Of a stretch of DNA of 64,000 nucleotides, positions 8,534 through 57,981 are shown piece after piece. The notes under the pieces are model-generated. The model was not told the origin of the DNA and made no database searches. It saw only the letters and a program-made list of their open reading frames with translations. Every line of letters begins with the position of its first letter. The stretch's first letter is position 1. The stretch comes from an uncultured Gammaproteobacteria bacterium (lineage in GTDB: Bacteria; Patescibacteriota; Patescibacteriia; UBA9934), in contig CAYFMS010000001.1 in NCBI GenBank assembly GCA_964344415.1, positions 317,315-381,314 of the forward strand. Direction: 5' to 3'. The position numbers and the translations under genes were made by a program.

Positions 8534-8612
8534 ATAAGGACAGTATACATCATGAGAGCATTGACTTGAAGGTATTTTTATGGTATTTCATTGATTGCCT
8601 AAGTGGAGGTAT

Positions 8613-9135
8613 TGTGAACAAACGTGTTCAAATATGCTCAATTACGTGGTGTGACCGAATCGTACATGCAAGGGGGTACTGCTCAACGCATTGCAGGAAA
8701 TGGTATCAAGAGGGTAGGCCGACTGATTGGAATCCTGATCCGCCAAAGGGCCGAAGCATCTGCAGTGTAACGGGCTGTGATTCTTACGTGCACGGTCATG
8801 GATATTGCAGTAAGCACTGGAAGCAGTGGCAGAATCAAAATCGTCCCGAACCCAAAGATTTTCAAGTGTTTCAGCGGCATAGTGGATGTGTGGTGATCGG
8901 TTGCACCGCATCGCATCATGCAAAAGGTTTTTGCAGAATCCATTATAAGAAATGGAAGAGGGGGACGCTTGTGAAGTTGAACGATGCTGATGGCATTTGC
9001 CAGTATCGTGAGAAAGTTGCTTCACGGAAAATCTGTAAATATCCGGGTTGTCAAAAAGAGTGGACCGGGCTCGGCTATTGCTGGGAGCATTTCATACAGT
9101 GGACTCGCGTCGGAGAGCCAGAAATCTGGCCTTAA
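8613..9135 (+). CDS. Protein built from four tandem Cys/His zinc-finger-like repeats (C-x4-C-x6-7-G[YF]C-x2-H-x3-W)
   Basis: GGAGG RBS at 8603 and GTG start at 8613. Repeats are CSITWCDRIVHARGYCSTHCRKW, CSVTGCDSYVHGHGYCSKHWKQW, CVVIGCTASHHAKGFCRIHYKKW and CKYPGCQKEWTGLGYCWEHFIQW. Confidence 0.6.
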
Positions 9136-9136
9136 T

Positions 9137-9895
9137 CTATCGCCGTATGGGCGATTTTTTTCTTGCCAAAGCTCGTTGTTTTTTAAGAGGCTCTTTTTCC
9201 GTCTTGCTCCACTTCTCTGTCGATGAACTGAAAGCGATACTGCTCAAGTCTAGAATATGCATTTTTATGAAATCCTTTGTTTTCTCAGGATAAACATTTC
9301 CGCATTCTCGAAGTGTCCAGCCAACAGCTTTTTGAACATAGGGATTGTCATCATGAAGCCGTGCCTTTATAAGCGGCAGGATTTTCATTACGGACAATAT
9401 CGTTTTTCTGCTATTTGAATAATACAGAAGGCTTGTCAGGGACAGGCGACGCTTCCACGGATTCCTATCCTGATTCCATAATGTAAAAACGGGGTATATT
9501 TCTTTTGGATATGCTTCGAGTAATGTCGCATATATTGAACTTAGCCAATCGCTATGCGCCCAATTATCAATTTTACCGGCCCATGATTTTAGAATACGCC
9601 AGTCGGCAAGGTTCAGGTCTTCTTTTTCAGAAAAAAACCAAAGAGGAATATGTAAAGCTTCAAAATTATTTGAAAACTTCCAAAGGTTAGCCATGATTCT
9701 TCGTAATTCACTTTGTGTGTAATTCCGCTCTAAATCTGTCAAAATTTCACGTGCAATTTTGCGAATGGACGGGATATTGCATCCGAGAATATCAAAAGAT
9801 GTATTCATATATCCAACGCTAAATTCAGCCCGCTTTTTGTCTGAAAACGGTTTCAATCTTTTTAAGATCTTCGTATGCAGATCTTGCGCCTGCAT
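9137..9895 (-). CDS. DNA alkylation repair enzyme (AlkC/AlkD-like HEAT-repeat glycosylase family)
   Basis: HEAT-like repeats and the WNQDRNPWKRRLSLTSL...DDNPYVQKAVGWTLRE motifs typical of the DNA_alkylation family. Confidence 0.7.
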   Translation of the reverse strand: MQAQDLHTKILKRLKPFSDKKRAEFSVGYMNTSFDILGCNIPSIRKIAREILTDLERNYTQSELRRIMANLWKFSNNFEALHIPLWFFSEKEDLNLADWRILKSWAGKIDNWAHSDWLSSIYATLLEAYPKEIYPVFTLWNQDRNPWKRRLSLTSLLYYSNSRKTILSVMKILPLIKARLHDDNPYVQKAVGWTLRECGNVYPEKTKDFIKMHILDLSSIAFSSSTEKWSKTEKEPLKKQRALARKKSPIRR

Positions 9896-11486: not shown

Positions 11487-11563
11487 GGGCTGGTAGTTCA
11501 ATTGGTTAGAGCACCGCCCTGTCACGGCGGAAGTTGCGGGTTCGAGTCCCGTCCAGCCCGCCA
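11487..11563 (+). tRNA. tRNA-Asp (anticodon GTC) with encoded CCA
   Basis: Acceptor GGGCTGG/CCAGCCC, anticodon loop CTGTCAC, T-arm GGGTTCGAGTCCC. Confidence 0.85.
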
Positions 11564-11730: not shown

Positions 11731-12003
11731 ATGTATTTTGTTTATGTCTTAATAAGTATAAAGGATCGGAAGCTATACATAGGCTATGCGGCCGATTTAG
11801 AAAAACGTATCAAAAGGCATAATAGTGGCTATGTCACAGCTACGAAAAATCGATTGCCATTAGAACTGATTTATTACGAAGCTTATAAAACTTCAGTTGA
11901 AGCTAAGCGTCGAGAAAAATATTTAAAGGGCGGAAACGGCAGGGCTCAGTTAAAAATCCAAATCAATGAAATGCTCAAGCATTACAAGTACAATTATTTG
12001 TAG
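11731..12003 (+). CDS. Stand-alone GIY-YIG nuclease domain protein
   Basis: YFVYVLIS...KLYIGYAADLEKRIKRHN...LIYYEAY...KYLKGGNG. Confidence 0.8.
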   Translation: MYFVYVLISIKDRKLYIGYAADLEKRIKRHNSGYVTATKNRLPLELIYYEAYKTSVEAKRREKYLKGGNGRAQLKIQINEMLKHYKYNYL

Positions 12004-19839: not shown

Positions 19840-20220
19840 ATGGTGGACCTGGGGAGAATTGAACTCCCGTCTGGTCAGTGCTCGACCAAGAATGTTTTAC
19901 AAGTATATCTTACCTATATACATCTACCGATAAAGGCAAGAGAAAGACGATAGATGTTTCCGCGCAAACCTTTGACATTCACTCGCGGGGCATGAATGAC
20001 GCATCCTGCTATATATAACACCCAGATCGCTTTTGCGCAGGATCAAAAGCTAGGATGGCACTGCACAGTGTTAGGCAGTTGCGAATGCAGGTAGATTCAT
20101 TCGAATCAACCCACGTGAAGAGTTGTTTGCATGTATCTTCTTGTATGTGTTTTTACTGAGAACATACGGCTCAGACTTGGTTCTTGGAAGGTGCTGCTGC
20201 CATCGATTCCTGGCAGGCCC
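19840..20220 (-). ncRNA. ssrA: tmRNA (ssrA)
   Basis: 5' GGGCCUG pairs with 3' CAGGUCC-A-CCA and carries the tRNA-Ala G3·U70 wobble. T-arm is GGGAGUUCAAUUCUCCC. 5' region GGGGCCUGCCAGGAAUCGAUGG resembles the E. coli GGGGCUGAUUCUGGAUUCGACGGG. Lies directly downstream of smpB. Candidate tag ORF is GCA AAC AAC... TAA, giving ANNSSRGLIRMNLPAFATA. Confidence 0.75.
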
Positions 20221-22982: not shown

Positions 22983-24056
22983 ATGACCAGAAAACTTTTT
23001 TACGCCATTCTTATTCCAATTCTCGTAAGCGTTGCGGTGAGTATTGTCGCATCTGTTTATACGAATCAGGCGCTTGAGCGTTATTTAACGGGTCTCGACA
23101 CAGAATCTCAATTTAGAGATCAGACGGAAACAGTGACGCGTCCTTTGCCAGGGTCCTATGAAGAATCACTGAGCCAGATTGATACATTGATGACTGAATC
23201 TGTCGGCGTAATTCGCAGTACATCTATTTCACGTCAAGATGCGCTTATTCGGTCTGATGCGGATGGTGATCCGGGGGTTGTGATTACGAATGATGGATGG
23301 ATGCTATTCTCAAGTGAGTATACGCAGGGAATTGTTGGCGATGTTTTTGCATATGAAGTATGGATTGGTCAAAATGCATATTCAATTGAACAAGTGGTGA
23401 GTGATGAAATTTCAGGTCTTTCATTTGTAAAAGTGAATGCATCCGGTCTTGATCCCGTTTCTTTTGGAGATACAGTTTCAGCGACGGGCGGGGAATTATT
23501 ATTTGGTGCATCGCCAGTTCACGGTATTTCTCTTTCGGCGATTATTAATGCTCGTGAATTTTCTGGCGGTATTTCTCATGCAGATTACGATGTAAATTGG
23601 TTATGGGCTGTCGAGGAAATGCCTATTGGGTATCCAGTCTTTAATTCAGGAGCTCAGCTTGTCGGATTTGTTGATTCGAATGATCATGTTATCCCGCTTC
23701 TGAATGTGGAGAATCAAATTCGATCTTTCATTAGGCAGGGGAATATTGATCGCGTTGGTATGGGGGCACATATAGCCGAGGCACAATTTATCTTGAATAT
23801 TGATAGGGATGTGTACCCAGTTTCAGGCGCGCTTGTTCAGAATGTGATTATTGATTCTCCGGCATGGCAGGCAGGATTGCGTTCGGGGGATATGATTCTC
23901 TCCATTGATGGTTTGACGGTGACGGCTGAAGATACACTTGCACTTTTGCTTGGTCGTTATGAATCTGGTGATTCTATTCAAGTTGAATATATGCGTGAAG
24001 GTGAACGAAATGATGTGAAACTTGAATTGGCTTCGAGGGCCAGTTTGGGGTATTGA
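22983..24056 (+). CDS. Membrane-anchored trypsin-like (HtrA-type) domain plus PDZ domain protein. The Ser-protease motif is not clearly conserved.
   Basis: C-terminal PDZ GALVQNVIIDSPAWQAGLRSGDMILSIDG. The upstream region resembles the S1C fold but has FNSGAQL in place of GDSGGP. Confidence 0.6.
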   Translation: MTRKLFYAILIPILVSVAVSIVASVYTNQALERYLTGLDTESQFRDQTETVTRPLPGSYEESLSQIDTLMTESVGVIRSTSISRQDALIRSDADGDPGVVITNDGWMLFSSEYTQGIVGDVFAYEVWIGQNAYSIEQVVSDEISGLSFVKVNASGLDPVSFGDTVSATGGELLFGASPVHGISLSAIINAREFSGGISHADYDVNWLWAVEEMPIGYPVFNSGAQLVGFVDSNDHVIPLLNVENQIRSFIRQGNIDRVGMGAHIAEAQFILNIDRDVYPVSGALVQNVIIDSPAWQAGLRSGDMILSIDGLTVTAEDTLALLLGRYESGDSIQVEYMREGERNDVKLELASRASLGY

Positions 24057-24094
24057 CAGGGCTATTAATATCTGATAATGTCGCTCCAGATGCC

Positions 24095-24180
24095 CTTTCG
24101 GGTATGTCGTACGAAGCTATTGCAGCGCCTCCTCCTCGCTACAATGTGCGGAATATGACATACCCGAAAGGGCGTTTTTT
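24095..24180 (+). terminator. Long inverted repeat plus T9 run after the PDZ-protein gene
   Basis: gccctttcgggtatgtc ... gacatacccgaaagggc followed by ttttttttt. Confidence 0.55.
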
Positions 24181-24480
24181 TTTGCCGCTTGTGAGCTTGC
24201 GCTCTTGCATCTCCATGCTCCGCTCCTCGACAACGTACCTTTCAGTACGTCTTACTTCGGTGCTCGCATGTCAAAGCAATAGCATCAAGCTCACTTCGCG
24301 ACCCCATTTGAAATCCTGAGCCTGTCGAAGGATCTCTCAAATTGCGATGAGAATCTCTTCAATCTCCCAAATCTCTTCTATATCCTTTTGCACTTCTCTA
24401 TGTGCTATTTTCTACTAACTACTTACTTCGTAGCCGTCAATCCGTATATCCATACCATCTGTACATTCGTAATTATTTAC
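24175..24480. repeat. Modular intergenic repeat element, copy B
   Basis: Modules present are ttttttt-gccgcttgtgag, caacgtacctttcagtacg, gcgaccccatttgaaatcc, aatctcttcaatctcccaaatctcttctat and ccgtatatcc. Confidence 0.7.
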
Positions 24481-24519
24481 ACTTTTCGCTAATATTAGCC
24501 ATATTTCGCACCCAAGGAC

Positions 24520-24553
24520 TTGACAAATTGCCTATTTTTTGGTATAAATGTTA
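24520..24553 (+). promoter_or_regulatory. Near-consensus sigma70-type promoter
   Basis: TTGACA, 17 nt, TATAAA. Followed by an approximately 215-nt GC-rich, hairpin-rich 5' leader before the ATG at 24772. Confidence 0.55.
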
Positions 24554-24771
24554 ACCTTTCGGGCTGTAGCGGTCTGGCGTCCGGGAAACACCCCTCCTTG
24601 TTTTCCTGTCGATGTCGGACCACTAGAGAATGAAAGGAAGAGTAGAGCATTCGCCGTATGTGAGAGGGTATACGGCGAGTGCGCTGCGGCTGCAACGTTT
24701 AGGCCTTGTGGCCCTCGCATTCAACACTTTCACAAGATTCCCTGCGAGTCAGCGGGGTAAAGGAGACAGCG

Positions 24772-25875
24772 ATGTTCAAGAGCATCGTTTTTCACGCCAT
24801 GATGGCGTTGTTCGTTTGCGTGGCTCCGGTCGCGCAGGCGCAGGATCCGATTGGCCAGCAGGTCGGCGCGCTCGATGAGCGTGTCGAAGAGCTCGGCCGT
24901 GTGGTCGCTGATCGTGGTGAGAAGATCGCCACGATCGAGCGAGAGATCGCACGCATCGAGTCTGTCGGTGAATACAGCGAGAGCAATGCGTCTCGCATCG
25001 ACGAGTTGCAGCAGCAGCTCGATTCGATGAAGCCGACCGATCGTCAGAAAGCCGTCTATGCCCAGTGGGTCGAGATGGCCAAGCGCGTCGAAGAGCTCGG
25101 TATGACGTCCACGGAATTCGTGGATCGTGTCATGACCGTCACCGAGATGTCTGCGAGTCAGGAGGTGAAGATCACCGACCTGATGACCGGCCTCGCGGAC
25201 CTCGAAGAGAGGATCACGAAAGTCGAGCGTCGCGTCGGAGTGGTCGAAACGGATGTCGCTACGCTGACGGGAGCCGTGTACGGAACCGAAGAGTCCACTG
25301 GACTCATCGAGGATGTGCGCGACAACATGTCGGCGATCGACGATTTGTCGACTCGCGGATTCTGTCTGGACTTCAGTCTCGGCGGGTTCGCGGGCGGCGG
25401 CCCGTTTGGTCAGGCGGCCCAGGCGGTGTTTGCACCGCTGCAATTCCGGGGCGTTCGCGCCGGACTGCAGTTGGGCGCCGGTATCGGATACTGCACGGAC
25501 AAGTTTCGTGTGGGGTTCGAAGGAGGATTCATCTTCGATATTCCCGATCACTCGATTGGTGGATACGGTCAGGTGAGTGGGCTCTGGCGTGTCAGTGACT
25601 CCATGTTCTCGATCGGGCCGACCGGCAGGTTCGAATACCTGGAGCGTCGATACCGACATGGTCTGAAGGATGGGCAGGACGTCATCGTCCAGCTCGGGCC
25701 AAGGGTTCGTGTCGACTTCCTGCGCAAGCAGGATGGGGTCGACTTGGCGCTGAACATCGATGCCCTCATCGGCTGGCAAGGTACCAGCGTCGGACATTCC
25801 GGCGGCGGTACGGCCGGACGAGTGACTGGCGGGGCTGTTCTCGGTTTCACCGTTGGGTGGACCGACAGGCGCTGA
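24772..25875 (+). CDS. Secreted coiled-coil protein with a Gly-rich beta C-terminal domain (GC-rich island)
   Basis: AGGAG RBS, signal peptide MFKSIVFHAMMALFVCVAPVAQA, and E/R-rich heptad region. Confidence 0.6.
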   Translation: MFKSIVFHAMMALFVCVAPVAQAQDPIGQQVGALDERVEELGRVVADRGEKIATIEREIARIESVGEYSESNASRIDELQQQLDSMKPTDRQKAVYAQWVEMAKRVEELGMTSTEFVDRVMTVTEMSASQEVKITDLMTGLADLEERITKVERRVGVVETDVATLTGAVYGTEESTGLIEDVRDNMSAIDDLSTRGFCLDFSLGGFAGGGPFGQAAQAVFAPLQFRGVRAGLQLGAGIGYCTDKFRVGFEGGFIFDIPDHSIGGYGQVSGLWRVSDSMFSIGPTGRFEYLERRYRHGLKDGQDVIVQLGPRVRVDFLRKQDGVDLALNIDALIGWQGTSVGHSGGGTAGRVTGGAVLGFTVGWTDRR

Positions 25876-26063
25876 CTCCGAACTGGGGCGACCGCGATAC
25901 GCATAGCGTATTCGCGGTCGCCCTGACCTATTACTCAGAATGTACACAGATTGTAATTCAAGAATGAATTTCAGCCTGAGTACATGCTGCAAGGCTGTAC
26001 GAGAACCTTACAATTTTGTCCCATTCCGGGACATTCAACCCCCGGAATGGGGAAGGAGACAAC

Positions 26064-27584
26064 ATGAAGAACTTGTTTTTCGTCCTTCTCACGGTTTTTG
26101 CCGTGAGTGGCTGCGCCGAATGGGCGCCGCTCGAGGACATTCGATTCACTGATCGTGGTGATTCGGATACGGATACCGATGCGGATTCGGATGCAGACAC
26201 GGACACGGATACTGACGCAGACTCCGATACGGACACCGACACCGATACCGACGCAGACAGCGATACGGACACGGATACGGATACCGATGCGGATTCGGAT
26301 GCAGACACGGACACGGATACTGACGCAGACTCCGATACGGACACCGACACCGATACCGACGCAGACAGCGATACGGACACGGATACGGATACCGATGCGG
26401 ATTCGGATGCAGACACGGACACGGATACTGACGCAGACTCCGATACGGATACCGACACCGATACCGATGTGTCTCCTGACGCAGATGGCGACGGGTGGAC
26501 TGTCGATGCAGGTGACTGCAACGATAACCCCGTCTTCGGTTACTGGTACAATCCTGATCAGGAAGAGAGCTGTGGCGATGCCCAGGACTACAACTGTGAT
26601 GGGCACGACGATCCGCTTGCCGGGTGTGTCGAATGCTACTGGGATTCGGATGGTGACGGATACGGATCCTCCACCTCGTACGAGATGGAGGAATGTGATG
26701 GTCACTACTACGTGACTGTCGACGGAGATTGTGAGATCTTCGATGATAATTCCTATCCGGGTGCTGACGAAGACTGTGATGGCATCGACAATGACTGCGA
26801 TGGTGACATCGACGAAGGTTGCCTGATTTCGCCACCCGACAATGACAACGACGGTTACGATGTGTACAACGATTGTGACGACACCGACCCCTACCGGAAT
26901 CCTGGTGAGGACGAGGTATACGACATTCGTGACAACGACTGCGACGGAGTTCAGGACAATGTCCCCAACCAGGGGCATCGTGCTCTCTCCCGCTGGTACA
27001 AGATTCACGGCTACCAGAACCTCGACATCGACGGTGACGGTACTACGGGTCTGTACGAGGACATCGAGCATCGCTTCTCGGCAACTTCGCCGGGCAGTGG
27101 ATGGTACCAGGATGCCACCGAGCTCCTGACGTACCCGCTCGACATCTGCTCGAGCGGGTACGGTCCTTCGGACACTTGTATCGTCCGCAGCAATGGCGAG
27201 GTCGAGCTCTGGGGCGGGTACGTTCTCGTGCCACTCTACGAGTGCTACCGCGTCGACACCACCGGACTCCACACCACGGAGTACCACCCGCAGAACAGTG
27301 CGGGCTACATGGCGGCATCGAGTTGTGCATTCTCGCCAGTCGGTCTGGTTGTTCCCACGGGGACGAGTACCTCAATCGATCAGCAGGATTTGCTTCCGTA
27401 CTATCTTCATGCGTCGGCGCCGTATTACGGTGTCAGTGAGGTCGAGGGTGCTTCCGGCTACAATGCTGGCGACATCATGTACTCGGACCTCTGGGATGAA
27501 GGAGACGGAACGGGTCCGGGTGGATCCTACACGTACCACCAGACGGCCTGGTTCGCACTCAATCCGGACGATACTACCTACTGA
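26064..27584 (+). CDS. Lipoprotein with a (D-T/A/S)n acidic tandem-repeat region and MopE-type Cys-rich putative metal-binding motifs (GC-rich island)
   Basis: GGAAGGAG RBS and lipobox-like FAVSGC. About 110 aa of [10 protein letters not shown] repeats. DGDGYGS...CDDTDP...[22 protein letters not shown] matches the Cu-binding_MopE-type motif pattern. Confidence 0.7.
26170..26490 (+). repeat. Near-perfect 108-bp tandem repeat, about 3 copies, inside the CDS, encoding the DTD repeats
   Basis: gataccgatgcggattcggatgcagacacggacacggatactgacgcagactcc... recurs with a 108-nt period. Confidence 0.8.
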
Positions 27585-27589
27585 TCTCC

Positions 27590-27672
27590 TCAACGCCCGC
27601 CGGCTATTACAACTGCCGGCGGGCGACGAAAGGACCAACTCTCAAACGGAGAGCCCTGGTCCTTTTTTCTTT
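27590..27672 (+). terminator. Tandem GC hairpins plus T-run after the MopE-like gene
   Basis: cgcccgccggc...gccggcgggcg, then ggaccaactctc-aaac-ggagagccctggtcc followed by tttttt. Confidence 0.6.
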
Positions 27673-27889
27673 TCCATATTTTAATTTATGCTTCATGAAA
27701 ACCCATGATTCAGACGGACTTAAAATGCAAAAATATGAGATTGGGGGTTGACGGGAAGGAGGAAATCAGCTAATATTGCGCCATCGCAAATGCCCGAAAG
27801 GGCCCATAATAAAAATCAGGTTTGACGCGATCATGAAGTAACTCTCCCTTCGGGGCCCTTCATGCCAAACCGTCGTTAAAAGAGAAAAT

Positions 27890-28750
27890 ATGCCAAATAT
27901 TCCAAGTATTGAGGAATTACTCAAAGCCGGTGTTCATTTTGGACATCGCACAAGTCGCTGGCATCCAAAAATGGCTGAATATATTTTTGGAGCACGTCAG
28001 GGAGTTCATATTATTGACGTTGAAAAAACGCATGACATTTTGGAAAATGTTCTAGAAGAAATCAAGATGCTTATCGCAGCCGGTAAGGAAATCTGGTTTA
28101 TCGGAACAAAACAGCAAAATCAGTCAATTATTGAGAAATATGCGATTGAAGCAAAAGTGCCTTTCGTGAATCGACGTTGGCTAGGTGGAACATTCACAAA
28201 CTTTAAAGAGATTCAGAAGCTTATCAATGAATATCTTGATTTGCGCGACAAGCGTGAAAAGGGTGAGCTGAAGAAATATACAAAGCTTGAACAGCTTCAA
28301 TTCGACCGAAAAATCTCTGAGCTTGAAAATAAGATCGGTGGTATTTCAACAGCTGCAAAATTGCCAGATGCAATCTTTGTTGTGGACGTGCGAGCAGATA
28401 AGACAGCTATCGTAGAAGCAAGAAAGCAGGGGATTCGAATCTACGCACTTTGTGATACGAATGTGAATCCGGACCTTGTTGATACCGTCATTCCTGCAAA
28501 TGATGATTCTATTGCATCAACATCATTACTTACAAGACTTGTTGCCGACGCTGTTGTCGAGGGTCGTTCCGCGAAAGTAGCTCCAAAGCCGACTGCAAAA
28601 AAGGAAGTAAAAGAAGAGAAGGCAAATGATGTTGACTTGTCTGAGGATTCAAAAGCTTCTGTTGAAGAGCTTGATTTGGAACTCAATGAAAAGCTTGCTA
28701 AAGAAAAGGAAGAGGCTGAAAAGAGTGCTGCGCCAAAGCGAAAGAAATAA
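27890..28750 (+). CDS. rpsB: 30S ribosomal protein S2 with a Lys/Glu-rich C-terminal extension
   Basis: LLKAGVHFGHRTSRWHPKM. Confidence 0.95.
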   Translation: MPNIPSIEELLKAGVHFGHRTSRWHPKMAEYIFGARQGVHIIDVEKTHDILENVLEEIKMLIAAGKEIWFIGTKQQNQSIIEKYAIEAKVPFVNRRWLGGTFTNFKEIQKLINEYLDLRDKREKGELKKYTKLEQLQFDRKISELENKIGGISTAAKLPDAIFVVDVRADKTAIVEARKQGIRIYALCDTNVNPDLVDTVIPANDDSIASTSLLTRLVADAVVEGRSAKVAPKPTAKKEVKEEKANDVDLSEDSKASVEELDLELNEKLAKEKEEAEKSAAPKRKK

Positions 28751-47451: not shown

Positions 47452-50400
47452 ATGAAAAGAAAGATCGTATCTCTACTGGGGGTTTTTGGTTTTCTCATCC
47501 TTGTTGGGTCAGCTTATCATTTTGCATCTGCATATGTGGAGGGTGATTATACGAAGGATACGGTAGCGAATAATGTGGCTGAGGGCGAAACAAATGTGAA
47601 CTTTGCCTATCTTGAATTGCCGGATCCAACAACAGACACCATTGTCACAAATGGTGCGACGGCGGTTGTGGCAGCGACAGATGCTCTTTCAGCTTTTCCG
47701 GCAACGCATCAGTTTTTTGATAAATCCGACAACAATACATACGCTGATGGAAATGGAGTGATCAGTTCTGCAGATGTCATTATCGGTGCAGGGGATACCG
47801 TCTTAACGACTGCAACAGGGGTTCTGGAGGCATTTAGTGGCACATTTGCAGAAACGGGTAGCACAACTGGAATTGGATGGATTGACAATATAACTGACGA
47901 CAATATTTTGGAAGCAACAGAAGATATTGTTTCCATTGTTGCTAATTTGGCACAGGTCTCAAATGGTTTACTTGCGCGTACATTTGAGACGGATATCTAT
48001 TTCTTGGCAGATTCAAGCTCTACGACAGAATATAATGCTAGTGATGATAATGCGGTTGTTGAAGATGCGGATGCTGACGGGTATTTAACTGCCGGAGACA
48101 ATGTCTTAATTGCTGGAAAAGGGTCAGTTTACAATTTTGGTTCTTCTGGTGATGATGTTTGTTTCGACGGATCCGTTGTAAATGATGGGGAATATGATGA
48201 AGGTGAGGTGATTTGGTGGGATAATTCTGGTGGAAATGACTGTTCTTCATTCTTGTCTGGTACAGACATTATTTTGGTAGGATCGTCGGCTCCAACGGGG
48301 ACAAGTACGGAATTCTTTGGGAATGAAGATGAGGTGGGGTATTTGGACCAGAACGGAACAGGTGCTGATGGTTTTACTTGTTCAAGGGCGGGTGATTGCG
48401 AAGCTCTCGTCTATTCGGGTGCGGATGGAGTTGACTTGTCTGCGGATGCAACCCTTCCTGTGACGGCGGAATTCTTTGATTCTTCTTCAGAGGCGACGGA
48501 TGGAATTCGAACAACAGGAGATGCTTGGGATGAGTCTGGAAATGCTTTACAGACACATGTTCAGTTTTCGAGCGTAACAACAAATGGTGAGGTGGAATAT
48601 GTCTATCTTGATGCAGATACGAATACAGATTTTACTTCCACGGATCCAATCATGCAGGTAATTGATAAGGGCGCTGATAATATCGCTAGCGGTCAAGATT
48701 TTCGATCGTTTAAAGATAATGATTATCGTCTTTTCGACCATGATGATGACGGTGTATATGACGATGGAACGGATGGATTGGTTGGTTCTGATGATAATGA
48801 CCTTGATCCATCAGACACGCTTGTGAATACACAAGCGGCGCCGACGCCGGCTATGCTCGAAGCTTTCCCTTCTACGCATCGATTCCATGACCATGATTCA
48901 AGCGGAAGCTATGCAGATGGTGACGATGTCATTAATGATAGTGACGAGTCTACTTATTACAATGCGGATGATTTGCTTTCACTTGGTATTACTGTAACGG
49001 GCTCTACAACGGCCACGAATGGTGAAATTGATGACATTTATGTGTATGAGCGTGCTGGCGGGGCTTGTGCTGGTTCAGGTACGGACACGCTTCTTGGTTC
49101 TGTTTCTGGTGACGTTTTAGATGAAAATATTGCTATTACGCGCGCACCATTTACGGCGGCAGATGATATTACACTTTGCTTCTATCTGGATGCTGCAGCT
49201 GACTTTACGGCTGGAAGAACATTTCAAGCACAAACTGGTGCAACGAATCCAATAACGTATAGTTCTGGGGCAGATTCGGGAAGTATGGGATTGAAAACGG
49301 GGTCCGATGCTTTAACAGTCTTTTATGAAGATTTGACAGCGACAGTTTCCTCCTCTGATTTGAGTCCAAGTGCGACGGCTTCGTATACAATCTCGTATAC
49401 TGTTACGAATAATGTGCCTGCCAGTTCAAATATTATTAATACATTCCCTGCAGGATTTGATATTAGTGGCATGTCAATTGCCTGCACAGACGACGGCGGA
49501 GCGATTACAGGCTCATCAACAATACTTGGTCAAATCGCAGCTGTGGCAAATATTGGTGCTCAAGTCGATGCTGGATCTGCTGTTTCTTGTGTGGTTTCGG
49601 ATGTTGTAAATCCTGCAGCAGAGGGTGCTTCTGCTGCATTTGTAATAGGTCCTGCCTATGCTGGAACGAGTATTGCGGAGCGTGATGATGATGAAACTGT
49701 AACAATTGCTACGCCCTCTGCAGGGGGAGGATCTACTGAAGCGAGCAAACCAAAGACATGGGATGTGTCTCTCTTGTCGCCAAATGGTGGCGAGCAGGTC
49801 GCTGCTGGTGAAGCGATTGAAATCATGTGGCAATATCTCGGCACGGGAGCTATCAATTATGTGAACCTTGCTTATTCAATTGATGAGGGGGAGACATGGA
49901 CAGATATTGTGAAAAATACCGCAAATGACATGAAATATAGCTGGATAACTCCAATGGTGAATACGGCCAAGGCTCTTGTGCGTGTCGCTACAACTGATTT
50001 GGCACATGAGTTATTCACCGACGAATCCGATGCTGTGTTTTCAATTGGTGATATATCATCCGGCGGTGAGAGTACGGATGATGTCGAAGAATCTTCTGAC
50101 CCAGGTATCATCTGTAATGGAGATGAATTCCCGGCTGGCATTGAAATTGGTGATCATATACTTGGTGTAACGCCAGATGGAGTTCAGTATCCGGCAGTAT
50201 TTTATGTCGGTGAAGACTGTCGCAGGCATCCATATTTGAATGAGCCGCATTACTTCACTTACGGTTTCACGGATTTTTCAAATGTTGAAATATATTCAAC
50301 GCTTGATCTTGAGCGTATTTCCGTTGGAAAATCTATGCCAATCAAACCCGGAACGGTTCTAGTCAAAACGACGGATAATCCGACGGTCTACTATATTCAA

Positions 50401-50610
50401 GATACGGGCGATCCGCTGAATCCGGAACTTTACAGCATTCCAAGTGAAGAAGTCGCTATTGAATATTTTGGCGCTGATTGGGCGGAGAGAATCATCGACG
50501 TTGCCCCGCATTACTTAACAATTTTTGAAGATAATGGCCGTCCAGTAACCGACTTGCAGCCGTCCCTTGTTTCTAATATGTACCAAGCGGATGATTTGCG
50601 AGCTCGATAA
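47452..50610 (+). CDS. Large (1052 aa) secreted Thr/Asp/Gly-rich surface protein, hypothetical adhesin or S-layer-like
   Basis: Signal peptide MKRKIVSLLGVFGFLILVGSAYHFASA and low-complexity beta-rich repeats. Confidence 0.65.
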   Translation: MKRKIVSLLGVFGFLILVGSAYHFASAYVEGDYTKDTVANNVAEGETNVNFAYLELPDPTTDTIVTNGATAVVAATDALSAFPATHQFFDKSDNNTYADGNGVISSADVIIGAGDTVLTTATGVLEAFSGTFAETGSTTGIGWIDNITDDNILEATEDIVSIVANLAQVSNGLLARTFETDIYFLADSSSTTEYNASDDNAVVEDADADGYLTAGDNVLIAGKGSVYNFGSSGDDVCFDGSVVNDGEYDEGEVIWWDNSGGNDCSSFLSGTDIILVGSSAPTGTSTEFFGNEDEVGYLDQNGTGADGFTCSRAGDCEALVYSGADGVDLSADATLPVTAEFFDSSSEATDGIRTTGDAWDESGNALQTHVQFSSVTTNGEVEYVYLDADTNTDFTSTDPIMQVIDKGADNIASGQDFRSFKDNDYRLFDHDDDGVYDDGTDGLVGSDDNDLDPSDTLVNTQAAPTPAMLEAFPSTHRFHDHDSSGSYADGDDVINDSDESTYYNADDLLSLGITVTGSTTATNGEIDDIYVYERAGGACAGSGTDTLLGSVSGDVLDENIAITRAPFTAADDITLCFYLDAAADFTAGRTFQAQTGATNPITYSSGADSGSMGLKTGSDALTVFYEDLTATVSSSDLSPSATASYTISYTVTNNVPASSNIINTFPAGFDISGMSIACTDDGGAITGSSTILGQIAAVANIGAQVDAGSAVSCVVSDVVNPAAEGASAAFVIGPAYAGTSIAERDDDETVTIATPSAGGGSTEASKPKTWDVSLLSPNGGEQVAAGEAIEIMWQYLGTGAINYVNLAYSIDEGETWTDIVKNTANDMKYSWITPMVNTAKALVRVATTDLAHELFTDESDAVFSIGDISSGGESTDDVEESSDPGIICNGDEFPAGIEIGDHILGVTPDGVQYPAVFYVGEDCRRHPYLNEPHYFTYGFTDFSNVEIYSTLDLERISVGKSMPIKPGTVLVKTTDNPTVYYIQDTGDPLNPELYSIPSEEVAIEYFGADWAERIIDVAPHYLTIFEDNGRPVTDLQPSLVSNMYQADDLRAR

Positions 50611-56892: not shown

Positions 56893-57025
56893 TTGAATAT
56901 ATCAAGAGATAGTTAGGGAACGAGCCCATTGATCTGTCCGCAACCTGCCATTGGTAAGGTGCGAATTCTCGCCCAAAGGGAAAGATAAATTTTAACCACT
57001 CTTTTCCCGGAGTGGATTTTCATTT
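56893..57025 (+). promoter_or_regulatory. SAM-I (S-box) riboswitch with terminator expression platform upstream of metK
   Basis: aUAUCAAGAG..AGGGA..GAGCCCaUUGA..CGCAACC..GGUGCGAAUUCuC..GGAAAGAUaAA matches the S-box consensus blocks. This is followed by ccactc-ttttcccg-gagtgg then attttcattt (terminator). Confidence 0.7.
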
Positions 57026-57027
57026 CT

Positions 57028-57981
57028 ATGAATCAAGAATATTTTACGGCCGAGTCCGTGACGATTGGTCATCCAGACCGTATGTGCGATCAATTTTCAG
57101 ATGCTATTTTAGCGGCATATGTTGCTCAAGATCCAAATGCGCGTGTTGCGGTCGAATGCATGGGAGGGCATGGGAAAGTGTGGGTATGCGGGGAAGTGAC
57201 CTCGAATGCAGAGATTAATATCCCGTCCATTATTCAAAAAACATATCGAGACATTGGTTATAAAGATGAATTGCAAATTGAGGTTCATTTGGTGAAACAG
57301 TCGCCGGATATTGCACGCTGCGTTGATACGGGCGGGGCGGGGGATCAGGGGATTGTGATTGGGTACGCTTGCGATGAAACGCCTGAATTTTTACCGTTAG
57401 AGGCTGCACTTGCTCATCGTTTGACGGATGCGCTCACCGAGGCTCGGGTTTCGGGGCGATTGCCTTATTTGGGTCCAGATGGAAAATCGCAGGTGACGGT
57501 GAATCCTGCGACGGGTCATGTGAAGGCGATTGTTTTGAGCGCGCAGCATGATGCGAGTGTTTCGATTGATCGGGTACGTGCGGATCTTCGCGAGCTTTGT
57601 TTCTCTGTCATCCCGGGCTTGCATGTCCGCTGTAGCTCGCAGAGCGAAAGCGGGACCCGGGATCCAGCGTATTTCATTTCTGAAGATACACAATTCTTCC
57701 TCAATCCCGCCGGTCCATTCATTCAAGGAGGATTCGAGGCAGATACCGGCCTTACGGGCCGAAAGCTTGTTGTAGATTTTTACGGTCCGCGCGTACCAAT
57801 TGGCGGTGGAACAACGCACGGAAAAGACATGACAAAAACCGACCGATCAGGCGCCATGAAAGCAAGAGAAAAAGCGATTGAGATTTTGCAGGAAAAAGGC
57901 GCAAAAGAGGTGACTGTTGTGTATAGCTATGCGATTGGAATTGCGGGTCCGATTGATGAGAGGGTGGTGGTGAATATATAA
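57028..57981 (+). CDS. metK: S-adenosylmethionine synthetase (short, 317 aa; canonical motifs retained)
   Basis: GHPDRMCDQFSDAIL, GAGDQG and GGGTTHGKDMTKTDRSGA. Preceded by the SAM-I riboswitch. Confidence 0.8.
   Translation: MNQEYFTAESVTIGHPDRMCDQFSDAILAAYVAQDPNARVAVECMGGHGKVWVCGEVTSNAEINIPSIIQKTYRDIGYKDELQIEVHLVKQSPDIARCVDTGGAGDQGIVIGYACDETPEFLPLEAALAHRLTDALTEARVSGRLPYLGPDGKSQVTVNPATGHVKAIVLSAQHDASVSIDRVRADLRELCFSVIPGLHVRCSSQSESGTRDPAYFISEDTQFFLNPAGPFIQGGFEADTGLTGRKLVVDFYGPRVPIGGGTTHGKDMTKTDRSGAMKAREKAIEILQEKGAKEVTVVYSYAIGIAGPIDERVVVNI

What the first reader, a model, noticed from the sequence alone, without database searches (positions are those of the whole stretch)
8613..9135. Protein composed solely of four tandem C-x4-C...G[YF]C-x2-H-x3-W modules
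The four roughly 28-aa repeats have spacing consistent with a treble-clef or zinc-ribbon-like C3H metal site each. There is no other domain. A GGAGG RBS and a terminator hairpin are present. I could not assign it to a named family. It is a possible nucleic-acid-binding regulator.
Basis: seen in the sequence. Interest (0 to 1): 0.5.

Follow-up and report, generated by a model that had tools for sequence, protein, structure and literature searches.

The report
Nuclease-free homing-endonuclease-type zinc-finger array
This small gene encodes four tandem zinc-finger modules of a very common but untested type that normally forms the front end of mobile "homing" DNA-cutting enzymes; this copy has no cutting domain, so it is an ordinary member of a known class.

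Summary

- PHROG "HNH endonuclease" profiles match it at E=7.7e-25, but only over their N-terminal repeat region.
- phmmer against 1.84 billion representatives gives 6297 relatives. These carry 2-14 copies of the same module at about 40-aa period.
- About 60% of close relatives add a C-terminal HNH, Endonuclease VII or GIY-YIG domain.
- Many relatives hit Pfam PF24906 (Zf_WRKY19) or DUF5763. The query itself stays below both cut-offs.
- Array-only relatives are common, for example Bacillus phage 0305phi8-36 gp9.

The closest relative is a two-module, nuclease-free ORF in a Candidatus Uhrbacteria genome (51% identity).

Best reading: a basic, four-zinc DNA-binding protein of homing-endonuclease origin that binds without cutting. 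DNA binding is inferred, not shown. It is a new member of a known kind and of low interest.

The parts
8605..8609 (+). GGAGG Shine-Dalgarno sequence, 4 nt upstream of the GTG start
   Evidence: read directly
8614..9135 (+). CDS, 173 aa, GTG start, TAA stop. A basic protein (pI 9.3, 20.4 kDa) made only of four zinc-finger modules and linkers
   Evidence: The same 173-aa product was called on ENA contig k127_108011
8635..8703 (+). module 1, aa 8-30, CSITWCDRIVHARGYCSTHCRKW
   Evidence: pLDDT 81-92
8761..8829 (+). module 2, aa 50-72, CSVTGCDSYVHGHGYCSKHWKQW
   Evidence: With module 3 it is 51% identical to the Uhrbacteria two-module ORF
8887..8955 (+). module 3, aa 92-114, CVVIGCTASHHAKGFCRIHYKKW. 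The usual G-D-P after the helix is replaced by RGTLV and a longer linker with a predicted beta-hairpin (aa 119-133)
   Evidence: Weak DUF5763 match at aa 97-113
9034..9102 (+). module 4, aa 141-163, CKYPGCQKEWTGLGYCWEHFIQW
   Evidence: Weak PF24906 match at aa 139-159 covering profile positions 2-22 of 24
9139..9162 (+). intrinsic-terminator-like hairpin ATCGCC-GTATG-GGCGAT followed by TTTTTTT. It lies inside the last codons of the convergent DNA_alkylation (AlkD-like) gene 9137-9895/9985 (-)

Best explanation
The gene encodes a free-standing, nuclease-less array of four Cys3His zinc-finger modules. Their family consensus is C-[ST]-[VI]-x-G-C-x5-A-[RK]-G-[LYWF]-C-x2-H-Y-x-R-W-x3-G-D-P, with a period of about 40 aa.

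The same module, in 2-14 tandem copies, forms the N-terminal part of thousands of free-standing homing-endonuclease-like proteins of phages and bacteria. There it is joined to interchangeable nuclease domains (HNH, HNH_3, HNH_5, Endonuclease VII, GIY-YIG, and rarely LAGLIDADG or Vsr-like).

Proposed mechanism:
- Each module binds one Zn2+ through the C-x4-C knuckle and the C-x2-H at the start of a short basic helix (predicted).
- The four mini-domains are beads on flexible Pro-rich linkers (predicted).
- Together they lie along nucleic acid, most likely double-stranded DNA, and read a site. The variable residues at module positions 9-11, 17-18 and 21 would do the reading (inferred from domain architecture and charge).
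- With no catalytic domain, the protein would bind without cutting.

It most likely descends from a homing-endonuclease gene or its DNA-binding half. It now acts as a DNA-binding protein of unknown target in a Patescibacteria (CPR) chromosome.
For: Homology (shown):
- phrog_5351, 1271, 19978 and 3593, all annotated 'HNH endonuclease', match at E=7.7e-25 to 1.1e-7. The best match covers only profile positions 4-80 of 171.
- phmmer against 1.84 billion representatives gives 6297 hits at E<=1e-3 and 847 at E<=1e-10. Every one of the best 149 has 2-14 modules.
- The (4,9) Cys spacing is found in 1170 of about 1290 modules, and the period mode is 39-43 aa.
- All 16 ligand positions are invariant in alignment A3.

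Portable-module architecture (shown):
- Of 130 relatives, the nuclease domains found were HNH_3 in 22, HNH in 19, HNH_5 in 15, Endonuclease_7 in 12, GIY-YIG in 4, and LAGLIDADG_3, Vsr, DUF559 and NUMOD3 in 1 each. These domain counts can overlap within one protein. PF24906 matched in 58 and DUF5763 in 17.
- By my own tally of the table, about 72 of 120 profile hits carry a precomputed nuclease domain.
- tblastn and Foldseek against phages return actinophage HNH and Endonuclease VII genes. A published paper describes such genes as mobile free-standing homing endonucleases (PMC3706429). Another describes phage HNH homing endonucleases with zinc-finger domains 'joined by loose linker regions' (PMC11855218).

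Fold (predicted):
- The AlphaFold2 model built from A3 has mean pLDDT 77. The modules score 81-92 and the linkers 50-69. A helix starts at each C-x2-H, and pTM is 0.44.

The protein looks functional rather than decayed:
- The ORF is intact and has an RBS and a terminator.
- The flanking genes abut it, so there is no room for a lost nuclease domain.
- A nuclease-free two-module relative in Candidatus Uhrbacteria is 51% identical including the linker.
- Array-only ORFs are common: complete ORFs with 2-10 modules and short tails occur at many of 80 metagenome loci. Phage 0305phi8-36 gp9 is a 182-aa four-module protein.

Charge: pI 9.3 with 28 Lys+Arg against 14 Asp+Glu. Family positions 13, 22, 24 and 25 are mostly Arg or Lys.
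Against: - DNA binding by this module has not been shown for any member. I found no solved structure by sequence or profile and no paper on the module.
- The query does not reach Pfam's cut-off for PF24906 (13.5 against 27 bits) or DUF5763 (14.1 against 26.3 bits).
- Its codon usage is atypical for the genome: log-likelihood ratio -0.07 against 0.26 +/- 0.12 for housekeeping genes, and GC3 0.49 against 0.40.
- Two of three public gene calls on identical DNA skipped it.
- Only one close relative exists in the collections searched, so selection on the nuclease-free form is supported by just two sequences.
Confidence: 0.6

Rival explanations
1. A decaying relic: what is left of a free-standing homing-endonuclease gene after loss of its nuclease half. 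It would be still open by chance or only recently inactivated, with no present function.
For: - Most relatives are fused to nucleases.
- Codon usage and GC3 are atypical for the genome.
- The gene was not called in two of three assemblies.
- The G-D-P motif after the helix is degenerate in all four modules, module 3 has an odd insertion, and there are extra Cys at aa 27 and 129.
- It is almost an orphan at the whole-protein level.
Against: - All 16 ligands and the G-aromatic pair before the third Cys are intact in four old, diverged modules.
- An RBS and a terminator are present.
- No nuclease remnant can fit, because the neighbours abut the gene.
- A second nuclease-free relative in another CPR genome keeps even the linker.
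- Array-only proteins recur widely in phages and bacteria.
Confidence: 0.2
2. A trans-acting targeting subunit. The array would recruit a separately encoded nuclease to a DNA site, for example the 90-aa stand-alone GIY-YIG protein at 11731-12003.
For: GIY-YIG fusions to this module exist (4 of 130; P0241 and P0253). A bare GIY-YIG catalytic domain is encoded 2.6 kb away.
Against: - The two genes are not adjacent or co-oriented as an operon; three genes and a tRNA lie between them.
- No homologue of that GIY-YIG protein occurs in the Uhrbacteria locus or in any of the other fetched array loci.
- From general knowledge, small GIY-YIG proteins are common on their own in bacteria.
Confidence: 0.07
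3. Not a DNA binder. The modules would bind protein or RNA, or act as a zinc or redox buffer. A20-type fingers, the closest solved fold, bind ubiquitin rather than DNA.
For: The best structural analogue is A20 ZnF4 in complex with ubiquitin. Nucleic-acid binding by this module has never been shown.
Against: - The module is repeatedly fused to at least five unrelated DNA-nuclease folds and to HTH domains. That is the signature of a DNA-targeting module.
- The protein is strongly basic.
- The A20 link is weak at sequence level: hhalign probability 7%, no Pfam zf-A20 hit.
Confidence: 0.1

Closest known systems
N-terminal Cys-rich repeat arrays of free-standing phage and actinobacterial HNH / Endonuclease VII homing endonucleases (PHROGs 5351, 1271, 19978, 3593; e.g. 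Gordonia phage ClubL gp149, Mycobacterium phage Piper2020 gp23)
   Same: Same module, with the same ligand spacing, G-aromatic-C-x2-H-Y/W signature, tandem arrangement and linkers. Significant profile and pairwise matches.
   Different: Those proteins continue into a C-terminal His-Me-finger nuclease domain. The window protein stops about 10-14 residues after module 4 and has no HNH, Endonuclease VII or GIY-YIG match even at E<=10.
Bacillus phage 0305phi8-36 gp9 and gp10 ('Cys-rich domain protein; may contain zinc fingers'; gp9 is relabelled 'HNH endonuclease' in RefSeq)
   Same: gp9 is a 182-aa protein made of four such modules and nothing else, which is the same architecture as the window protein. 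tblastn covers 98% of the query.
   Different: Only 27% identical. It is a phage gene sitting in a replication/nucleotide-metabolism block, whereas the window gene sits among housekeeping genes of a small bacterial chromosome.
Pfam PF24906 (Zf_WRKY19, 24-position zinc-finger model) and PF19067 (DUF5763)
   Same: 58 and 17 of 130 relatives reach E<=0.001 (best 8.9e-15 and 3.7e-8). The query's weak matches fall exactly on modules 4 and 3.
   Different: The query is below both gathering scores (13.5 against 27 bits; 14.1 against 26.3 bits). The Pfam names refer to a plant protein or to 'unknown function', and neither entry gives a function.
A20-type zinc finger (TNFAIP3 ZnF4, Rabex-5, ZNF216)
   Different: A20 fingers are C-x3-C-x11-C-x2-C with four Cys, and they bind ubiquitin. 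Profile-profile probability is only 7% and there is no Pfam zf-A20 match. I treat this as an analogue, not as family membership.
NUMOD modules and the I-TevI zinc finger/linker of GIY-YIG and HNH homing endonucleases
   Same: Same logic: small, repeatable modules attached to a low-specificity nuclease domain to supply target recognition (PMC5714182; PMC3239194).
   Different: No sequence relation. NUMODs are mostly helical or HTH-like and lack metal. Only 1 of 130 relatives has a NUMOD3 hit.

Membership tests
HNH / His-Me-finger endonuclease (the label that PHROGs and RefSeq would transfer) | A beta-beta-alpha-metal catalytic core with the H-N-H (or Endonuclease VII) motif | tested here: not met
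   No HNH, HNH_3, HNH_5, HNH_4 or Endonuclease_7 match at E<=10. PHROG matches cover only the N-terminal repeat part of the profile (positions 4-80 of 171). Only about 10-14 residues follow the last module.
HNH / His-Me-finger endonuclease (the label that PHROGs and RefSeq would transfer) | DNA cleavage activity | not testable with these tools
   Needs an in vitro nuclease assay.
Homing-endonuclease-associated CCCH module arrays (PF24906 / DUF5763-type) | The ligand pattern C-x4-C-x9-C-x2-H in each module | tested here: met
   Four of four modules have it. This spacing is found in 1170 of about 1290 family modules. All 16 ligands are invariant in A3.
Homing-endonuclease-associated CCCH module arrays (PF24906 / DUF5763-type) | The flanking signature: G before Cys2, [AG]-[RK]-G-aromatic before Cys3, and aromatic-x-[RK/Q]-W after His | tested here: met
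   Present in modules 1-3 and partly in module 4 (L-G-Y before Cys3). See the alignment and the column frequencies. The trailing G-D-P is degenerate in the query (GRP, NRP, RGT, GEP).
Homing-endonuclease-associated CCCH module arrays (PF24906 / DUF5763-type) | Tandem arrangement with a period of about 40 aa | tested here: met
   The query periods are 42, 42 and 49 aa. The family mode is 39-43 aa.
Homing-endonuclease-associated CCCH module arrays (PF24906 / DUF5763-type) | Significant sequence similarity to family members | tested here: met
   phmmer E=4e-39 to P0002 and 847 hits at E<=1e-10. phrog_5351 E=7.7e-25.
Homing-endonuclease-associated CCCH module arrays (PF24906 / DUF5763-type) | A score above Pfam's curated gathering threshold for PF24906 or PF19067 | tested here: not met
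   13.5 against 27 bits and 14.1 against 26.3 bits. Relatives do pass, so this is a sensitivity limit of very short models and not evidence against homology.
Homing-endonuclease-associated CCCH module arrays (PF24906 / DUF5763-type) | One Zn2+ bound per module | not testable with these tools
   Needs ICP-MS or a structure.
A20-type zinc finger (zf-A20) | Four Cys ligands, C-x(2-4)-C-x11-C-x2-C | tested here: not met
   The fourth ligand is His and the middle spacer is 9 residues, not 11.
A20-type zinc finger (zf-A20) | Sequence or profile similarity to A20 fingers | tested here: inconclusive
   hhalign of 300 modules against Rabex-5 and ZNF216 gave an in-register alignment, but probability 7% and P=0.005. 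No zf-A20 hit appears in Pfam scans.
A20-type zinc finger (zf-A20) | The A20 fold | tested here: inconclusive

The most novel reading that the evidence does not exclude
These modules could be a prokaryotic and viral counterpart of C2H2 or TALE arrays: a portable, tandem DNA-reading unit of about 40 aa. A few hypervariable positions (module positions 9-11, 17-18 and 21) would set base preference.

Nuclease-free arrays such as this one would then be domesticated sequence-specific DNA binders. They could act as transcription factors, or as 'site-blocking' proteins that protect a homing site from cleavage, in genome-reduced CPR bacteria that have few conventional regulators.

The evidence does not exclude this. 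The module is fused to at least five nuclease folds in 2-14 copies. The variable positions cluster. One metagenomic protein has six near-identical modules that differ mainly at those positions (L036).
Probability: 0.15. Interest if true: 0.6.

Novelty: new member of a known kind. Interest (0 to 1): 0.25.

Why it matters
For this window it matters little. The gene is one more copy of a very common mobile-element-derived module, and the main practical point is an annotation warning. Similarity through the zinc-finger array alone transfers the label 'HNH endonuclease' to proteins that have no nuclease domain, as has happened to 0305phi8-36 gp9 in RefSeq.

More broadly, the module family is huge: 6297 clusters at 50% identity matched at E<=1e-3. 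It has no solved structure, and I found no biochemical study of it. If its tandem arrays read DNA in a modular way, they would explain how free-standing HNH, Endonuclease VII and GIY-YIG homing endonucleases of actinophages choose their sites. They might also offer a new programmable DNA-binding scaffold. A compact four-module, nuclease-free protein like this one would be a convenient object for a first structure or for SELEX.

Tried and rejected
I corrected the start to 8614.
- Pfam and NCBIfam on the query gave nothing above threshold. PADLOC defence models gave nothing.
- PDB sequence searches with the protein and with the A3 profile gave nothing even at E<=10.
- The word-indexed homologue search with the single protein found only the protein itself.
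- The single-sequence AlphaFold model was useless (pLDDT 31).
- Foldseek against the PDB gave only noise, as expected for beads on a string. The afdb50 library was unavailable.
- A longer ORF starting at TTG 8491 is not on record anywhere and would overlap the divergent gene, so I rejected it.
- I looked for syntenic 'empty sites' with the AlkD-like neighbour in metagenomes and found no relatives. Mobility of the gene could therefore not be tested.
- I looked for operator-like repeats upstream and found only a 10-nt direct repeat that includes the RBS, which is not convincing.
- A GIY-YIG partner is unlikely, because there is no co-occurrence in other loci.
- Literature searches for the module (PF24906, DUF5763, A20-like plus HNH, CCCH plus homing endonuclease) found no paper that characterises it.
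- I left the third large homologue search unused, because the metagenome and representative searches had already shown that only one close relative exists.

Full report
**1. What is in the sequence**

Window 8614-9135 (+) is an ORF of 173 codons that starts at GTG. GGAGG lies at 8605-8609. A 6-bp hairpin (4 G-C pairs) followed by seven T lies at 9139-9162.

The pattern C-x4-C-x9-C-x2-H-x3-W occurs at aa 8-30, 50-72, 92-114 and 141-163. It occurs in no other open frame of the window. Composition-preserving shuffles gave at least one match in 0.4% of 200,000 trials and never more than two.

The modules are 23-46% identical to one another in protein and 33-48% in DNA, so they are old duplications. 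Seven residues precede module 1 and about 10-14 follow module 4. The protein has pI 9.3.

**2. Genomic setting**

The gene is a single transcription unit. Upstream and divergent is a 117-aa membrane protein with a weak DUF5665 match. Downstream and convergent, 1 nt after the stop codon, is a DNA_alkylation (AlkD-like) gene. Further out lie ABC-2 transporter genes, pyruvate kinase, nrdR and ftsZ.

The same DNA lies on a 768-kb metagenome contig from PRJEB17505. The only GTDB genome with a relative is a Candidatus Uhrbacteria MAG. The host is therefore probably a Patescibacteria (CPR) bacterium, though this is an inference.

There is no phage or island context. The gene's codon-usage score is the best of its six frames, but it lies below every housekeeping gene tested (-0.07 against 0.26 +/- 0.12), and GC3 is 0.49 against 0.40. 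Two of three public gene calls on identical DNA omit the gene.

**3. Family**

Pfam and NCBIfam give nothing above threshold for the query. The only hints are PF24906 (Zf_WRKY19) at E=0.065 on module 4 and DUF5763 at E=0.033 on module 3.

PHROGs do match:
- phrog_5351 'HNH endonuclease' at E=7.7e-25, covering profile positions 4-80 of 171.
- phrog_1271, 19978 and 3593, also 'HNH endonuclease'.
- One 'HTH DNA binding protein' family.

A full phmmer scan of 1.84 billion cluster representatives finds 6297 proteins at E<=1e-3 and 847 at E<=1e-10. The best 149 all contain 2-14 modules.

Across 1184 modules the consensus is C-S-[VI]-[DE]-G-C-x-[RK]-P-x-x-A-[RK]-G-[LYWF]-C-x-x-H-Y-x-R-W-[RK]-[RK]-x-G-D-P. 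The (4,9) spacing is found in about 90% of modules. The period mode is 39-43 aa. The most variable positions are 9-11, 17, 18 and 21.

In an alignment with 24 four-module stretches, all 16 ligands are invariant.

**4. Architectures of relatives**

A Pfam scan of 130 relatives gave these counts. A protein can match several of these models, so the counts overlap.

| Pfam family | Relatives matched |
|---|---|
| PF24906 (Zf_WRKY19) | 58 (best E 8.9e-15) |
| DUF5763 | 17 |
| HNH_3 | 22 |
| HNH | 19 |
| HNH_5 | 15 |
| Endonuclease_7 | 12 |
| GIY-YIG | 4 |
| HTH_3 | 2 |
| LAGLIDADG_3, Vsr, DUF559, NUMOD3 | 1 each |

By my own tally of the table, about 72 of 120 profile hits carry a precomputed nuclease domain.

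tblastn and Foldseek against phages return actinophage HNH and Endonuclease VII genes, several of them next to lysin A. Published work describes exactly this class as mobile free-standing homing endonucleases (PMC3706429). Other work describes phage HNH homing endonucleases as having zinc-finger domains on loose linkers (PMC11855218).

The module is thus a portable unit attached to at least five unrelated nuclease folds.

Array-only proteins are also frequent:
- 0305phi8-36 gp9 has 182 aa and four modules. GenBank calls it 'Cys-rich domain protein' and RefSeq calls it 'HNH endonuclease'.
- Many complete ORFs with 2-10 modules and short tails occur among 80 metagenome loci.
- Examples lie in phage replication regions and in a Paenibacillus chromosome.

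**5. Closest relative**

An 87-aa, two-module, nuclease-free ORF in Candidatus Uhrbacteria RIFOXYA2_FULL_40_9 is the closest relative. The same protein occurs on a JGI contig. It is 51% identical to modules 2-3 of the query, including the linker, and it shares the G-R-P-T-x-W tail.

Its neighbours are different (superoxide dismutase, TypA), so the genes are not syntenic. Nothing else above about 40% identity was found.

**6. Fold**

Single-sequence AlphaFold failed (pLDDT 31). With alignment A3 the model has mean pLDDT 77. The modules score 81-92 and the linkers 50-69. pTM is 0.44. A helix begins at each C-x2-H (aa 24-33, 66-75, 108-115, 157-166), preceded by short beta bridges. This is a knuckle-plus-helix, treble-clef-like zinc site, arranged as beads on a string.

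Foldseek against the PDB found nothing. PDB sequence and profile searches found nothing. No member of this family therefore appears to have a solved structure.

**7. Mechanism**

- Shown: homology to the homing-endonuclease arrays, absence of any nuclease domain, and the gene's intact expression signals.
- Predicted: one Zn per module and the fold.
- Inferred: DNA binding. This rests on the repeated fusion of the module to DNA nucleases and HTH domains, on the basic charge, and on the conserved Arg/Lys on the helix and before Cys3.
- Unknown: the target and the cellular role.

I put 0.6 on 'a zinc-dependent DNA binder of homing-endonuclease origin that binds without cutting'. The rivals are a non-functional relic (0.2), a binder of protein or RNA (0.1), and a trans-acting targeting subunit for a separate nuclease such as the GIY-YIG ORF at 11731-12003 (0.07). 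The last has no co-occurrence support.

**8. Comparison and novelty**

The protein is a member of the homing-endonuclease-associated CCCH array family (PF24906 / DUF5763-type, PHROG 'HNH endonuclease' families). It meets the ligand, signature, period and similarity criteria. It is not an HNH endonuclease, because the catalytic core was tested for and is absent. It resembles A20 fingers in predicted fold only.

The caveat is that the family is annotated but not characterised.

Verdict: a new member of a known kind, with interest 0.25. The more novel reading is a modular DNA-reading code with domesticated nuclease-free arrays acting as regulators or site blockers. The evidence does not exclude it, and I rate it at about 0.15.

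Noticed in passing
window 19841-20220 (-): Rfam finds a full-length tmRNA (86 bits, E=4.8e-32). ARAGORN on the same window reported only tRNA-Asp and no tmRNA.
   Followed up: no
window 56896-56991 (+): A SAM (S-box) riboswitch aptamer (61.6 bits) lies directly upstream of ORF 57028-57981.
   Followed up: no
window 11731-12003 (+), next to tRNA-Asp 11487-11563: A stand-alone 90-aa GIY-YIG catalytic-domain ORF lies immediately after a tRNA gene. I considered it as a possible partner nuclease for the array. No homologue lies near any other array locus.
   Followed up: partly
window about 24000-28000: A GC-rich island (GC 0.55 against about 0.44 elsewhere) has long overlapping ORFs on both strands. 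Only 26016-27584 (+) has a Pfam hit, to MopE-like putative metal-binding motifs (E=2e-10).
   Followed up: partly
L006 3760-4362 and L007 2386-2988 (identical to window about 8534-9136): The 173-aa gene is missing from the gene calls of two public assemblies whose DNA is 100% identical to the window. It was called in a third. This family may be systematically under-called.
   Followed up: yes
L002 2912-3460 (Bacillus phage 0305phi8-36 gp9): RefSeq labels this 182-aa protein 'HNH endonuclease', but it consists of four zinc-finger modules with no nuclease domain. GenBank's 'Cys-rich domain protein' is more accurate.
   Followed up: yes
L036 2094-2711: A metagenomic 205-aa protein has six almost identical modules. 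They differ mainly at module positions 2, 5, 7, 8, 10, 11, 18 and 21, which overlap the family's most variable positions. This suggests recent repeat expansion with diversification at a few sites.
   Followed up: partly
window 47452-50610 (+): A 1052-aa ORF with no Pfam match at E<=0.001.
   Followed up: no
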